Source: Octopus vulgaris
Lineage: Eukaryota
DNA length: 64,000 nt
Reading direction: 5' to 3'
NCBI GenBank assembly: GCA_951406725.2
Contig: OX597817.1
Location: forward strand, 51,398,001-51,462,000
Under the pieces are notes generated by a model that searched no databases, had not been told where the DNA came from, and saw only the letters and a list, made by a program, of their open reading frames with translations. Position 1 is the stretch's first letter; every line of letters starts with the position of its first letter. Shown one piece after another: positions 2,127 through 54,212 of this stretch. Position numbers and translations under genes: made by a program.

Positions 2127-2678
2127 AGGATAAGATTGATATTTAAATATTGATCTTATCAAGTGGCCAGCACGGGAATAAAACCTTTCAAAGGTAATAA
2201 TTATTTAAAATTATAATTTAGGGTATCTGAGAGATACCACCACGCTGATAATACCAGTCAAATCCCGAATCTAAAGCCATATATATATGTTTGTGTGTCT
2301 GTGTTTGTCCCCCTACCATCGCTTCACAACCGATGTTGGTGCGTGTATGTCCCTGTAACTTAGCAGAACTATAGAATAAGTTCCAGGTTCACAAAGCATA
2401 AGTCCTAGGAATCGATTTGTCCGACTAAATCCGTGCTCCAGCAAGGCCGTAGTCAAATGACTGAAACAAAAGAAACAATAAAAGGAAGAGAATATATATA
2501 TGAGTGCCTGTGCTCGTGTGCGCGCGTGCATTATGTGTATGTGTGTGTATGTACCGGTTGGTGCACATATACAGGTAGGTTTATATATTTTTGCGTCTCA
2601 GTCTAATTGTGGTGGTGGTGGTGTGCGCATGTATTCACGAACCCACACTTTCACGCGCATACACATACACATACATTT

Positions 2679-3030
2679 ATGTATAATGCTTGTAGATTGA
2701 ATACTTTTCAATATTTTCATAGTCTTCTAGGCTATCGCAAATACTTAGCCAGGGAAAATGATAATGATTACACTTACTACTTTGAACGCATTACTCTCTC
2801 TTCCTCTCCCGTCACTTCGCACTCTCTCTCTCACACTATATACACACACACACATGTATAATGCTTGTAGATTGAATACTTTTCAATATTTTCATAGTTT
2901 TCTATGCTAAGTCTATCGCAAACACTTAGCCAGGGAAAATGATGATTACACTTACTACTTTGAACGCATTACTCTCTCTTCCTCTCCCGCCCCTTCTCAC
3001 TCTCTCTCTTACTATACACACACACACACG
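2679..3030 (+). repeat. Tandem duplication of a ~175-bp unit
   Basis: ATGTATAATGCTTGTAGATTGAATACTTTTCAATATTTTCATAG...(CA)n occurs at ~2679 and ~2854. Confidence 0.85.
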
Positions 3031-3105: not shown

Positions 3106-4095
3106 TTGAAGTATGTTTGTCACATATTTCAGCTGCTAAAGTCAAATATACTGCAGTTATCGAGGAGAAAAAATTCTCCCGTTCGTTCAGTGTCACCCTC
3201 TCTCGAGAATCTGAGACATCGATGTTTCGAGGTTGTTGACTCTTTTCACACCTTTCTACCATAAGAGAGATTTTTTTTTCTCCACGACATCTACAGTGTA
3301 TTTGCCTTTCAGCAATTGAAGTATGTGACAAACATATTTCAGCTAAACTAAATTGGGATTATACGTAAAAACCGCTTAACGCTTTTACTCCGGTTTTTCT
3401 CTCGATCGGGAGATCTACTAGCGCACATCAGTCAATGTGTGTTGGCTGAATTATGCATAAAGCTATAAGCGTTATCAGTTCGATCAGGGTTCCTTCTGTC
3501 AGGTACATCTCATCAATAAGAGTTAATAAACTCGGCGAGCTGGTAAAAACGTTAGCACGCCGAGTGAAATGCTTAGCAGTATTTCGTCTGCCGTTACGTT
3601 CTGAGTTCAAATTCCGCCGAGGTCGACTTTGCCTTTCATCTTTTCGGGGTCGATTAAATAAGTACCAGTTACGCACTGGGGTCGATATAATCGACATAAT
3701 CCATATGTCTGTCCTTGTTTGTCTCCTCTTTGTGGGTAGTAAAGAAACAAGTATTTCGTCTGCTGTTACGTTCTGAGTTCAAATTCCGTCGCGGTTGACT
3801 TTTCCTTTCATCCTTTCGGGTCGATTAAATAAGTACCAGTTACGCACTTGGGTCGATGTAATCGACTTAATCCGTTTATCTGTCCTTTGTCTCATCTGTG
3901 TGTAGCCCCTTGTGGGCAGTAAAGAACTGAGAGTCAACAAATTCAAAACATCGATGTCTCAGATTCCCGAGAGAGGGCGACACTGAACGAACGGGCTGCT
4001 TTCACACCTTTTTACCATAAGAGAGAATTTTTTTCTCCACAGTAACTTCAGTGTATTTGCCTTTAGCATTTGAAATATGTGACAAACATACTTCA
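3106..4095. mobile_element. PLE pLTR-like element in inverted/direct fragments, with decayed hammerhead halves, interrupted by a SINE-B dimer
   Basis: 3106-3243 is the reverse complement of parts of 3946-4095; 3245-3341 repeats 4000-4095; the GAAAC-ATCGAT-GTC palindromic stem III is intact on the minus strand at ~3214-3228 and reads AAAAC-ATCGAT-GTC on the plus strand at ~3945-3958. Confidence 0.55.
3533..3926 (+). mobile_element. tRNA-derived SINE family B, dimeric copy
   Basis: GGCGAGCTGG...GTTCTGAGTTCAAATTCCGCCGAGGTCGACTTTGCC (B box GTTCAAATT); more than 10 copies in the window. Confidence 0.85.
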
Positions 4096-17272: not shown

Positions 17273-17507
17273 GCTTCAACACACGAACTCATATAAAGCA
17301 TTTTGGTAACCAAATCCAAAAACGAAATAGCTTATATGTTGATAAACAGAAAAGGGTAATAAAATATAGGACTTTATGATTTTTAAGTTTAAAAATGTTT
17401 TCCTCGACAGTATATTTTATTTTTGTGGGTAGATAGTCATGTTGGTAATGATGGCGCTGTGGGTACTTAAATTAACATTGATTTGATATGATCCACTTCT
17501 CTTCGTA

Positions 17508-17923
17508 CCTATTTCTTTACTATCCACAAGGGTCTAAACACAGAGAGGACAAACAAGGACAGACAAACGGATTAAGTCGATTATATCGACCCCAGTGCGT
17601 AACTGGTACTTATTTAATTGACCCCGAAAGGATGAAAGGCAAAGTCGACCTCGGCGGAATTTGAACTCAGAACGTAACGGCAGACGAAATACCTATTTCT
17701 TTATTACCCACAAGGGGCTAAACACAGAGCGGACAAACAAGGACAGACATAGGTATTAAGTCGATTACATCGACCCCAGTGCGTAACTGGTACTTAATTT
17801 ATCGACCGCGAAAGGATGAAAGGCAAAGTCGACCTCGGCGGAATTTGAACTCACAACGTAACGCAGATGAAATACCGCTAAGCATTTCACCCGGTGTTCT
17901 AACGTTTCTGCCAGCTCGCCACC
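17508..17923 (-). mobile_element. SINE-B dimer
   Basis: Reverse complement of 3533-3926. Confidence 0.85.
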
Positions 17924-22012: not shown

Positions 22013-22647
<635 letters not shown>

Positions 22648-26878: not shown

Positions 26879-26925
<47 letters not shown>

Positions 26926-26939
26926 ATACATACATACAT

Positions 26940-27018
<79 letters not shown>

Positions 27019-27021
<3 letters not shown>

Positions 27022-27754
27022 TCTAGAGAACTTTCTTTGTAGTTTGATCGTTGATGATCTATTTCTAGCATACGGCCGATTACCTAGCAGTCTTGCCCTG
27101 CCAATATACACATATATTAGAATTTTCTCTGATTTCTCAGATTTTTTGCATGCTAGACTACTGGTTTTAAATTGATATTAAAATTAATATTAATTTATCT
27201 CCATCATTATTTAAATATTGAAATAAATACGTTCTCTAGTAGCAAACACTAACCGCAGTGAATTATTTACTGCAGTTCTTCGCTTCAGGAATTCTTTAGC
27301 GCGCCGGAACTAAGACATTTGAAGTTTTATCCCTAATGTAATCGGTAAAACTAAACACGTGTCTGTTTTGGCACAGAAAGCTGGGGTTAGTTTTTTCAGA
27401 TTGCATTTACACTGTACGATTGTACTGATGAGGCCTCGGACATTTGAATTATGTAAGTAATTCTTTTGTTAAAGGCCGAAACCGAGGTATGCAATTAATT
27501 CTGTTTTTTATATAAATTTTCATCTGTCTTGCCCGCCAAATTTGGTTCTGGTGTTCGTGAATTTTTCCTCTAGAGAACTTTCTTTGATCGTTGATGATCT
27601 ATTTCTAGCATACGGCCGACTACCTAGCAGTCTTGCCCTGCCAATATACACATATATTAGAATTTTCTCTGATTTCTCAGATTTTTTGCATGCTAGACTA
27701 CTGGTTTTAAATTGATATTAAAATTAATATTAATTTATCTCCCTCATTATTTAA
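27019..27754 (+). mobile_element. Retrozyme/pLTR-like non-coding element: ~190-bp direct repeats around one hammerhead, inserted in (TA)n
   Basis: 27019-27214 is repeated at 27566-27754; (TA)n on both flanks; hammerhead at 27419-27495. Confidence 0.8.
27419..27495 (+). ncRNA. Type I hammerhead, intact core, GUA site (predicted cut after 27489)
   Basis: ATTGTA-CTGATGA-GGCCT...AGGCC-GAAA-CCGAGG-TA-TGCAAT. Confidence 0.88.
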
Positions 27755-27759
27755 TTATT

Positions 27760-27814
<55 letters not shown>

Positions 27815-28085
27815 TTATTTATATAAACAAACCCGAAAAGCTTTGTGAGTTAAGAAGAGAAAGCTAGTATGATAATAACTGTATATAATTACTATATTTT
27901 TATTAAATAGATGGGTGAACGTTTGGCCAATCGGATGTACAAGCGTTGATTTATGGGTTTGATTCTGCCAGAGGTTAGCTCATCATTTTTTGATCATTTG
28001 TTTGTAGTTAAAATTTGTCGTTTGAAATCGGAGAATACATATTATCATAGAGTTATACACATACATATATATATATATGTATGTG

Positions 28086-50293: not shown

Positions 50294-51384
50294 GGCCGAC
50301 CCCCGAACTATACGGTCGCTATATCGACGACTGCGTAGGTGCCACCTCCCTTTCCCGTGAACTTCTCTGCCAATTCATCTCTTTCCTTTCCAACTTTCAC
50401 CCCTCTCTTCAATTCACCTCCACCATCTCCAACACCTCTGTCAACTTCCTTGACATCTCTCTCCGCATCGATCACCCCTCCAGCTCTCTCACCACCACCG
50501 CCTTCTTTAAACCTACGGATTCCCACCTCTATCTCAACTTCTCTTCCTCCCACCCCTTCGACACCAAACGAGCCATCCCCTACTCCCAGTTCCTCCGCCT
50601 CCGACGTTTGTGCAGCCGCGACCAGGATTTCGAGACCCAATCTCAATACCTGGCCCGCATGTTCAGACTCCGAGGTTACCCACCCACACTCCTCTCTGAT
50701 GCCCTCACCCGCGCCCGTCGCATCGACCGCACTACCGCCCTGTCTCCTTCCCCCCGCCCACCCCCCAACCGCACCCCCTTCCCCCTCCTTTTCCACCCCT
50801 CTACCCTACCCCTTCGTCGCAAGATACTACGTGCCTTCCGTCGCCTCCAGCTTGATCCCACCACCCGCCCCATTTTCCCTAACCCACCCCTGTCCTCTTT
50901 CAAACGAGCCCGCAATCTGCGTGACCTCCTGGTCCACAGCACCCTCTCTCCTTCCCCCTCAGCCCCACACGGATCATTCCCTTGCTCTAGATCCCGCTGC
51001 AACACTTGCCCCTTCATCACCAACACCACCGCTGTCACCGGCTCCAACCTGCATACTGTACGCATTAGGCACTCTTTTACGTGCACCTCGTCTGGCCTTA
51101 TTTACTGCATTAAATGCAACCTATGCGGGATGCTGTATGTAGGTCAGACGGGACGCCGGTTGTCCGACCGTTTCACTGAACACTTGAGGGACGTTCGCCT
51201 ACACTCTTTTTCTCCCGTCGCACGCCACTTCCGCTCGGCCGGCCATTCCCGAGATGACATCTCAGTGTTTGGTCTCGCCCCCCACAATGGTCGCCCACTT
51301 TCCAGGCTCCACTTGGAGCAACGCTACATCTTCACCCTACAAACTACCACCCCACACGGACTTAACACAGCCCCCTCCTCTTGA
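50294..51384 (+). CDS. Penelope-like element (Neptune-type) ORF, 5'-truncated: RT C-terminus, Cys-rich linker, GIY-YIG endonuclease
   Basis: RYIDD, FHPSLQFT, VNFLD, FKPTDSHLYL, SSHP, PYSQFLRLRRLCS, RGYP, CSRSRCNTC, LIYCIKCNLCGMLYVGQTGR..RFTEH..HF..H..E..GLN; no stops. The N-terminal part of the listed ORF is (TA)n read-through. Confidence 0.93.
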
Positions 51385-54212
51385 GATCGGTTTTTTTTTT
51401 TTTTCGGACACACCACCCACACCCACCCACCCACCTACCTCCCACACGCCTGTTCACACACACACATACGTAGACCCATCTACGTACATACATTCACACA
51501 TTTAATCACACACACTTACAGACACACATGCACATACACACACACATACATACATACACACACGCATACATACTTACACACACACACACACACACAGACA
51601 TACATACACACATACACACACACATACATACGCACATACATACACACACACTCACACACACACACCGCACGTACATACTTCACACACACACACATGCACA
51701 CATACATGTAGGCACATACATACATACATACCCACACATGCACACCCGTACACTGAATGCACACACACATACACCTTTTTGCATCCAGGCAGCCCCCCTC
51801 TTTTCTGCTTTCCGGTTTTGGCTGATGGATCCTCGGTTCCCGCGTAGCGGGGCGTTCGAGGGCCTTTGCGCTCGCGCGCCTTGGCGCGCGCTGGGGCTCG
51901 GTCGGCCCCTTTGGGCTTGCGTTGTACTGCTTGTGCGTTGTGTGCGTGGGCGCGCTTCGTGTGTGTGGGCTTGCTTCGGATGTGCGCATGCGTATGTTTG
52001 CATACATACCCACACACTCGCATGCATCCCTACCCACATACATACACGCACACCTACTCACACACACACATACACACACACACATACCCGCACACACACA
52101 CACATACATACATACACACACATACCCACTTCAGACATACACACACACAGACATACACCCATACACTCACACTCACACGCATACACACACACACATACAC
52201 ACGCACACGTACACATACACACACACACACACCTACATACATACATTACACTTGTATACACACACACTTACATTCATACACACACACCTACACAGCCATA
52301 CCCTCACTCAGACACACACATCTACCTACACACACACACAAACACACACTGACACACACCCATACATACATACATCTACACACTCACGCCTACACACATA
52401 CATACACACATACATAAACACACACACATACACATACACACACATACGCACACACGCATATACTTATACACATGCACACACACACACATACATACATACA
52501 CCCATATACATACACACACACATACCTACATACTCCTATACGCACATACATACACACATACACACTCACAAAAACATACACACACACATACTTACACACA
52601 CACTCACCTGCACGCGCACACACATGCATGACAAACACCCATACACTCACACTCACATACGCACACACCAACATAAACACGCACACGCACACACACACCT
52701 ACACTCCCACACACATACGCACGCACCTACATACACACACGCACGCATACACACGCATACACACACACATACACACACATGCATGCACACACACACACAC
52801 AAACATGCACGGACACACCCAGACATACATACACACACCTATATACACACGCCCACACACCTACATACACACACATATACACACGCCCACACAGCTACAT
52901 ACACACACATACATACACACATACACGGACACACCCATACATACTTACATACATACACCTATACACACACGCCTACACACCTACACACACACATGCATAC
53001 ACACACACATGTACGCACATACACACACATATACGCACATACATATATACCCACACACATGCACACACACACACATACGCACATGCATGCACGCATGCAC
53101 ACGCGCACACCTACACGCATACACACACACACACGCACGTACACATACATACATACACACACGCATACATACACCCATACACATACATGCATCCTACACA
53201 CACATACATACACACTCACACATACATACACACACACGCACTCACTCACACACCTGTATGTTCGCGCACACACATGCACATACACACACTTCCCCACACC
53301 CACACGTACATACATACACACTCATACACATACACACACACACACACACGGACATACATCTATGCACACACATACATACACACATACTCACATACATTCA
53401 TCGGACACACTGCCACCCAGACATACACACAGACACACTCACACATCCACACACACACATACGTACGCGCACACTCGCAGGCGCGCGCACACACGCGCTT
53501 GCGCCGGTTCGCGCACGCATGCGCGCCGCATGCACCTCGCCCTTGGACCCGACGAGACCTCCCGCCCGTTCCTGGGATGTCGCTTGTCGTTGGGTTTTCC
53601 CACGCCCGTCTCCGCGGGACCACTCTTCCATCTTCCCCTCCGCTGGAGTCCTTTTCCTTAACCCCCCCCTTTTTCGTTACACACACGCGCACACATATAC
53701 ACACATTGCTTAAACATATACATTACTCTTACACACATTCAATCTACTCGCCATTAATACTACCACGACACTGGACACACACACACACTACTACCCAACA
53801 CACGCTGGCACGCTACATACGCCCCCACCCCTTCCCCTCCCTCCCTTCCTCCTTCCTCCCTTTTCTTACTACTGACCTTTGTCTGCTATGCTGCTGCTAT
53901 GCTGACCACCGTCTCGCCCTACCTCACACGCCTACACACAGACGCACACACTAACACATACATATATTTTTTGTTTTTTTATCTCGCCTCACACACACAC
54001 ATACACACACGCACACGCACACACTCACACATACACACACATCTGTTGCGTTACCAACCTTGTCTCCACTCTTTTGCCTTTAAAAACCCACTTTGCTCTT
54101 GTTATCGTAAACATCCGCCTTTCACCATGTGTAACTCCTAACACCAGTCGTTTTTTTCTCTATCTCCGTGGCCCGCTCTGGGATCTTTCTTTCCTCTCTC
54201 TTCCTTCTTTAT

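What the first reader, a model, noticed from the sequence alone, without database searches (positions are those of the whole stretch)
27019..27754. Retrozyme-like 1.4-mer: one intact hammerhead between ~190-bp direct repeats, inserted in (TA)n
Seen: a unit period of about 547 bp, a terminal redundancy that is nearly identical (one 7-bp indel, few substitutions), no ORF, a canonical hammerhead (6-bp stem I, GGCCT/AGGCC stem II, GUA) and long (TA)n on both flanks. Known: retrozymes make circular RNAs via hammerheads, and PLE pLTRs form partial tandems. Inference: a circularly permuted copy of a ~545-nt circular or tandem RNA read more than once by a microsatellite-targeting PLE RT.
Basis: partly seen in the sequence, partly recalled or inferred. 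Interest (0 to 1): 0.8.

Follow-up and report, generated by a model that had tools for sequence, protein, structure and literature searches.

The report
Hammerhead-bearing non-coding Penelope-type repeat
This is one of a few hundred copies of a 547-base non-coding repeat that carries a hammerhead ribozyme fold and sits in TA microsatellites; its copies show the insertion pattern of Penelope-like retrotransposons, which likely mobilise it, possibly by copying a circular RNA more than once round.

Summary
In detail: a 547-bp unit, a 195/188-bp terminal repeat (one 7-bp indel, two substitutions), one type I hammerhead with its predicted cut after 27489, and (TA)n on both sides. It is a 5'-truncated copy of a dispersed non-coding family (about 400 segments estimated) that fits the non-LTR retrozyme / non-autonomous Penelope-like (PLE) class. 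Across 128 loci, copies are not free permutations: 170 of 194 arms end at one of two internal TA-like sites (S1, S2), while 5' ends vary. 59 loci are head-to-head pairs; where both ends are assignable, 41 of 42 pair S1 with S2. Repeats inside one insertion share subfamily variants (95 of 109, against 12% between loci), so each insertion comes from one source RNA type. Arms run through the cut site without indels, up to about three units. This fits a circular template but does not exclude an uncleaved tandem transcript. Compensatory changes support the hammerhead fold. No coding end was found. One locus is fused to a Neptune-like PLE, a weak lead to the partner. This copy has one hammerhead and is probably a dead end. 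The class is known; the S1+S2 pairing rule is the useful addition.

The parts
26883..27019 (.). (TA)n target microsatellite, left flank
27020..27566 (+). One full 547-bp turn of the non-coding unit, counted from this copy's 5' truncation point
   Evidence: other copies continue seamlessly across 547|1
27020..27214 (+). Upstream copy of the terminal redundancy (195 bp); its left end is a variable 5' truncation point
27103..27117 (+). Site S1: internal TA-like motif at which 70 of 194 family arms end (second copy at 27643-27657); inferred reverse-transcription start site, not used as an end by this copy
27419..27495 (+). Type I hammerhead fold; predicted cleavage after 27489; 2-bp stem III, 36-nt extended loop II
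   Evidence: cleavage itself not tested
27567..27754 (+). Downstream copy of the redundancy (188 bp, 7-bp deletion found in 1 of 155 segments, i.e. this copy only)
27745..27754 (+). Site S2: internal TA-like motif at which this copy and 100 of 194 family arms end; inferred reverse-transcription start site
27755..27825 (.). TA-rich / (TA)n right flank

Best explanation
The element is a 5'-truncated, 1.36-unit copy of a dispersed non-coding hammerhead repeat that is likely retrotransposed in trans by a (TA)n-targeting Penelope-like (Neptune-type) RT-endonuclease, likely from a unit-length RNA copied more than once. Shown: the unit, two fixed 3' ends, variable 5' ends, S1+S2 head-to-head pairs, one source type per insertion, seamless passage through the cut site. 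Inferred steps: rare two-hammerhead loci are transcribed and the RNA is cut and in part ligated to a 547-nt circle. A PLE protein dimer nicks (TA)n and starts cDNA at S2 and/or S1, whose TA-like sequence can pair with the target. Synthesis stops at variable points, sometimes after more than one turn. When both strands are primed, one uses S1 and the other S2, giving head-to-head arms. This copy started at S2, made 1.36 turns, and holds one hammerhead, so it probably cannot release a monomer.
For: Family: 124 matches from 40 scored of 1887 candidates at 72-100% identity; 186 exact hits of a 28-mer, 0 for the reversed control; about 400 segments estimated. Ends: 170 of 194 arms at S1 or S2; 152 of 165 such ends lie in (TA)4+; 46 of 68 single-arm 5' ends have (TA)3+ nearby against 9% background. 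Pairs: 59 of 128 loci head-to-head; 41 S1+S2, 1 S1+S1, 0 S2+S2, 17 with an unassigned end; p about 3e-12 against free choice. One source: common variants shared by both repeats in 95 of 109 cases (direct) and 78 of 106 (inverted), against 12% between loci; differences between successive repeats show no inherited polarity (7 same, 16 opposite). Read-through: 48 of 94 motif-selected arms pass the cut site and 16 of 94 exceed one unit; none of 109 passes has a gap at the cut; L002 holds about three units. Neptune-type PLEs in this genome end the same way, at two TA-like sites running into (TA)n. A PLE RT starts at two internal sites, nicks both strands and is predicted to be a dimer (PMC11167929, first half of the text read).
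Against: No autonomous PLE with the same 3' sequence was found among 80 fetched PLE loci, some overlapping (only 150 of 6136 GIY-YIG candidates were scored). A tandem transcript from a young, homogeneous source locus predicts the same sharing of variants as a circle. In PMC11167929 uncleaved RNA was the main substrate and hammerhead mutants still inserted; its start sites were not homologous to the target, unlike the TA-like sites here. 5' ends pile up just downstream of the cut site (24 of 72 arms at risk against 38 of 270 upstream, p=4e-4, bin chosen after seeing the data), which suggests some templates were cut and linear, though the stretch is also 80% AT. In 33 of 41 S1+S2 pairs the arms overlap, which needs strand displacement or two RNAs. 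Cleavage, circles and expression were not tested.
Confidence: 0.6

Rival explanations
1. Same class and same PLE enzyme, but the template is an uncleaved linear tandem transcript from a few young master arrays. The hammerhead matters at another step or merely rides along.
For: [quoted passage not shown] Tandem loci exist (6 of 188 arms with two hammerheads). Autonomous PLEs here also form seamless partial tandems.
Against: Tandem-from-tandem descent should let the first and second repeat drift apart. Instead they share subfamily variants (95 of 109) and show no inherited polarity. The longest arms (about 3 units) need masters at least as long, and none longer was seen in 128 loci. The catalytic core lacks inherited variants and the stems covary (30 loci were picked by hammerhead similarity).
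Confidence: 0.27
2. The unit is the terminal repeat (pLTR) of a coding PLE, and these copies are its truncated ends.
For: Same anatomy as PLE ends (PMC8557442 passages). One locus, L016, joins 22 nt of the unit to the GIY-YIG end of a Neptune-type PLE.
Against: Arms continue into another copy of the unit, never into coding sequence, in 127 of 128 loci. The PLE family of L016 shares no sequence with the unit in 29 other fetched loci. Sister family B has the same closed layout.
Confidence: 0.07
3. The redundancy arose at the DNA level, by local duplication or satellite-like unequal exchange after insertion of a monomer.
For: Li et al. (bioRxiv 10.64898/2026.07.22.740005, discussion) suggest local tandem amplification for retrozyme arrays.
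Against: The repeats keep exact phase and end at S1/S2 in dispersed loci, with variable 5' ends and inverted arms. Local duplication would not do this repeatedly, and no flanking DNA is co-duplicated here.
Confidence: 0.04
4. LTR-type non-autonomous element (TRIM or plant-type LTR retrozyme) with two short LTRs.
For: Two near-identical terminal direct repeats.
Against: The left end is not fixed, there is no TG..CA, the hammerhead lies between the repeats and is type I, and repeat length varies from copy to copy.
Confidence: 0.01

Closest known systems
Non-LTR retrozymes of animals (Cervera & de la Pena 2020, PMC7229834; Li, Clavereau & Pollet 2026, bioRxiv 10.64898/2026.07.22.740005)
   Same: Non-coding, AT-rich tandem unit with one type I hammerhead per unit; monomers outnumber multimers; PLE mobilisation and circle templates are proposed there.
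   Different: The unit is 547 bp, above the 150-450 bp of PMC7229834 but inside the 51-972 bp range of the preprint. Copies are mostly sub-unit or partial tandems inside (TA)n, with two fixed 3' ends and head-to-head pairs. 'Octopus' occurs 0 times in the main text of PMC7229834 and no mollusc is among the preprint's sampled classes; supplements were not read. No homologous PLE pLTR was found here, unlike 24 of 57 Xenopus families.
Endonuclease-containing Penelope-like elements, Neptune/Hydra/Naiad clades and non-autonomous Chlamys such as MRC1 (Craig et al. 2021, PMC8557442)
   Same: 5' truncation, partial tandems, inverted 5'-truncated copy, 'tail' at one end only, microsatellite targeting, hammerhead in the repeat.
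   Different: No ORF; the tail (S1 to S2) is about 110 nt rather than 30-40; no sequence shared with an autonomous 3' end among the PLEs sampled.
PAc (Poseidon of Anolis carolinensis) in vitro system (Frangieh et al. 2024, PMC11167929)
   Same: Two internal RT start sites defining the tail; both target strands cut and extended; AT-rich target; predicted dimer.
   Different: Here both start sites resemble the (TA)n target. The genomic pairs show that the two ends almost always use different sites (41 of 42), whereas that paper saw no difference in start site between strands.

Membership tests
Non-LTR retrozyme | Type I hammerhead in each repeat unit | tested here: met
   Core and stems at 27419-27495; covariation on 50 distinct copies. 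Rfam itself gives no hit.
Non-LTR retrozyme | Head-to-tail tandem units of a few hundred bases, low GC, no ORF | tested here: met
   547-bp unit, up to about 3 units; 50-89% AT per 44-nt bin; no coding frame.
Non-LTR retrozyme | Two consecutive complete hammerheads ('active' criterion of Li et al.) | tested here: inconclusive
   Not met by this copy (one hammerhead); met by 6 of 188 family arms.
Non-LTR retrozyme | Self-cleavage and accumulation as circular RNA | not testable with these tools
   Needs cleavage assay, RNase R and divergent RT-PCR.
Non-autonomous EN+ Penelope-like element | 5' truncation with fixed 3' ends and partial tandems | tested here: met
   170 of 194 arms end at S1/S2; 5' ends spread over more than a unit.
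Non-autonomous EN+ Penelope-like element | Inverted 5'-truncated copy, with a tail at one end only | tested here: met
   59 of 128 loci head-to-head; 41 of 42 assignable pairs are S1+S2.
Non-autonomous EN+ Penelope-like element | Microsatellite insertion bias | tested here: met
   152 of 165 S1/S2 ends in (TA)4+.
Non-autonomous EN+ Penelope-like element | 3' sequence shared with an autonomous partner | tested here: inconclusive
   None among 80 fetched PLE loci; most GIY-YIG candidates unexamined; one chimera at L016.
Autonomous PLE (unit as pLTR) | RT plus GIY-YIG ORF between the repeats | tested here: not met
   tblastn with five PLE proteins on all 148 fetched family loci hit three: L016 fused, L204 and L251 lying apart from the unit.
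LTR retrozyme / TRIM | Fixed TG..CA LTRs, type III hammerhead in each LTR, short TSD | tested here: not met
   A TSD cannot be read inside (TA)n.

The most novel reading that the evidence does not exclude
The family is a genomic record of rolling-circle retrotransposition: a Neptune-type PLE dimer copies a ribozyme-made 547-nt circular RNA, one subunit starting at S1 and the other at S2 on opposite strands of a (TA)n target, for up to three turns. The L016 chimera would name the donor enzyme. This would be direct support for the proposed circle-to-tandem route and would explain why PLE tails sit at one end only.
Probability: 0.35. Interest if true: 0.7.

Novelty: new member of a known kind. 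Interest (0 to 1): 0.42.

Why it matters
How PLE partial tandems, inverted arms and one-sided tails arise, and whether animal retrozyme circles are true transposition templates, are stated as open in PMC8557442 and PMC7229834. This family is short, young and numerous, and the same genome holds Neptune-type PLEs with long open RT-GIY-YIG frames, so a circle-versus-linear assay can be built from defined parts. The S1+S2 pairing rule is a quantitative constraint on any model. The single copy itself is most likely an inert insertion.

Tried and rejected
Rfam: no hammerhead model matched. Expression: no RNA holder listed; contigs of runs only guessed to be RNA cover the unit in pieces, which is no evidence on expression, strand or circularity. 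Partner by shared sequence: none in 80 PLE loci; a 26-nt match in L081 lay outside that PLE; the copy in L104 is a separate insertion about 3 kb from a GIY-YIG fragment. More chimeras: only L016 among 128 loci. Free circular permutation: rejected, 3' ends are fixed. A sharp stop at the cut site: only 8 of 94 arms start within 8 nt of it; a broader pile-up is ambiguous. Inherited differences between successive repeats, which would have shown a linear master: not seen; absence does not prove a circle. Whole-unit folding is more stable than shuffles (z -3.9) but is branched and does not tell circle from linear. Literature: 8 searches listed no paper on an octopus hammerhead repeat or on S1+S2 pairing counts; subscription journals, Repbase/Dfam and supplements were not seen, so the family may already be catalogued. 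No earlier notes on this genome or sequence.

Full report
Observation. The element spans 27020-27754 between (TA)n tracts. The repeats 27020-27214 and 27567-27754 differ by a 7-bp indel and two substitutions, giving a 547-bp unit and 1.36 turns. No coding frame lies inside. A type I hammerhead reads from the sequence at 27419-27495 with GUA at 27487-27489. Stem III has 2 bp and a near-palindromic loop that can self-pair between two molecules (-8.6 kcal/mol); loop II is a long hairpin. Rfam gives no match. On 52 copies (50 distinct), 94% of cells pair, 6 of 23 pairs change on both sides, and slid controls fall to 28-40%. The base pair of stem II next to the core is G-C in 16 copies including this one, A-U in 2 and unpaired in 32, so activity may differ between subfamilies.

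Host. The genome G000 has 2.80 Gb in 227 contigs. I take it to be an octopus from recalled likeness of its short repeats and from the 2.8-Gb size given for O. vulgaris in a passage of PMC13282606; this was not tested. Runs under four organism labels hold part of the sequence.

Family. Searches gave 1887 and 790 candidates, 40 scored each, and 186 exact hits of a 28-mer. Since 37 of 79 segments chosen by other queries carry that 28-mer exactly, about 400 segments cover it. I fetched 148 family loci. Removing repeats of the same insertion and one segmental duplicate (L010) left 128; a few duplicates may remain. L001-L030 and L250-L258 were picked by full-length similarity, L031-L060 by hammerhead similarity and L171-L249 by the 28-mer, so length statistics use the 94 motif-selected arms.

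Ends. 100 of 194 arms end at S2 (unit 184-215), 70 at S1 (84-112) and 24 elsewhere; several of the 24 are alignment breaks or small deletions. Both sites are TA-like, and 152 of 165 such ends lie in (TA)4+. 5' ends are spread over more than a unit. 68 loci are single arms, 59 head-to-head and 1 direct. Among head-to-head pairs 41 are S1+S2, 1 is S1+S1, none is S2+S2 and 17 have an unassigned end; free choice would give 48% mixed (p about 3e-12). In 8 of the 41 the S2 arm stops before S1, as in twin priming on one RNA; in 33 it runs through S1. PMC11167929 (first half of the text read) shows two internal RT start sites, cutting of both strands and a predicted dimer.

Template. Within an insertion, direct repeats differ at 2.3% of sites and inverted arms at 3.1%, against 5.4% between loci. 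Common variants are shared by both repeats in 95 of 109 and 78 of 106 cases, against 12% between loci. Differences between successive repeats rarely recur and show no polarity; the 7-bp deletion here is private (1 of 155 segments). So each tandem was made afresh from one sequence type and then aged. By the clock quoted in PMC13282606 (0.09 = 25 My) that is roughly 3 My for the family, a rough inference. 48 of 94 arms pass the cut site and 16 of 94 exceed a unit; none of 109 passes has a gap at the cut; L002 holds about three units starting and ending near S1. This is what a ligated circle predicts, as proposed in PMC4209133 (passages) and PMC7229834 (passages and discussion). A tandem transcript from a young master predicts nearly the same, and PMC11167929 found uncleaved RNA to be the main substrate. 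An excess of 5' ends at unit 468-511, just after the cut (24 of 72 against 38 of 270; post hoc, AT-rich), hints that some templates were cut and linear. Only 6 of 188 arms have two hammerheads; these are the candidate sources, and this copy is not one.

Partner. The genome holds many GIY-YIG PLE copies (6136 candidates, 150 scored), including a family with 781-aa RT-GIY-YIG frames. A C-terminal endonuclease with the CX2-5CxxC linker, seen by eye, places them as Neptune-type by the criteria in PMC8557442; no tree was built. They also end at two TA-like sites running into (TA)n. None of 80 fetched PLE loci shares sequence with the unit, apart from separate nested copies. At L016 a 22-nt inverted piece of the unit is fused to the last 486 nt of another Neptune-type family, which has 2758 candidates, the 40 scored at 94-100% identity, so a similar age. 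This may be a template switch, but it is 1 of 128 loci, and a later insertion with deletion explains it equally well. No unit leads into coding sequence otherwise.

Relatives. Family B (2644 candidates) is 74-77% identical in the aligned blocks, has the same layout and the same two ends, and is non-coding in 30 loci apart from a neighbouring PLE fragment at L132/L133. A third variant lies in L151.

Verdict. A real feature and a new member of the non-LTR retrozyme / non-autonomous PLE class, whose link to PLEs is argued in bioRxiv 10.64898/2026.07.22.740005 (parts 1-3 of 5 read; supplements closed). Confidence in trans-mobilisation by a PLE is about 0.9; in a unit-length, probably circular template about 0.6. 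What goes beyond the papers I read is the S1+S2 pairing count and the single-source test. Interest 0.42.

Noticed in passing
window 50296-51385 (+): 5'-truncated, GC-rich PLE fragment with RT end and GIY-YIG (28% identity to the 781-aa PLE protein) directly after a (TA)n tract.
   Followed up: partly
L098:1118-4818 and L091-L102: Very young Neptune-type PLE family (unit about 4.7 kb) with many near-identical 781-aa RT-GIY-YIG frames and a second, overlapping upstream frame of 479 aa without Pfam match; canonical PLEs are described as single-ORF.
   Followed up: partly
3' regions of L098, L065 and L016 (about 1095-1045, minus strand): By eye, the autonomous PLEs carry hammerhead-like motifs with a U3-A8 core variant and palindromic minimal stem III; family B has a U4C-like core with the same stem III palindrome as the 781-aa family. 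Not tested.
   Followed up: no
L016:925-1432: Chimera: 22 nt of the unit fused to the GIY-YIG end and 3' UTR of a Neptune-type PLE, forming the inverted arm of the insertion.
   Followed up: yes
L029:2285-2760, L111-L140, L151:2400-2625, L024:2130-2330: Sister non-coding families (B, C and a more distant one) with the same 3' region, often nested in the (TA)n next to family A or PLE copies.
   Followed up: partly
L069:213 and 450; L064:about 695: Other hammerhead-bearing repeats with long loop II, one as an inverted pair, next to PLE fragments.
   Followed up: no
window 2665-3029, 3578-3887, 17506-17876, 22223-22563: Head-to-tail dimers of 169-184-bp SINE-like repeats.
   Followed up: no
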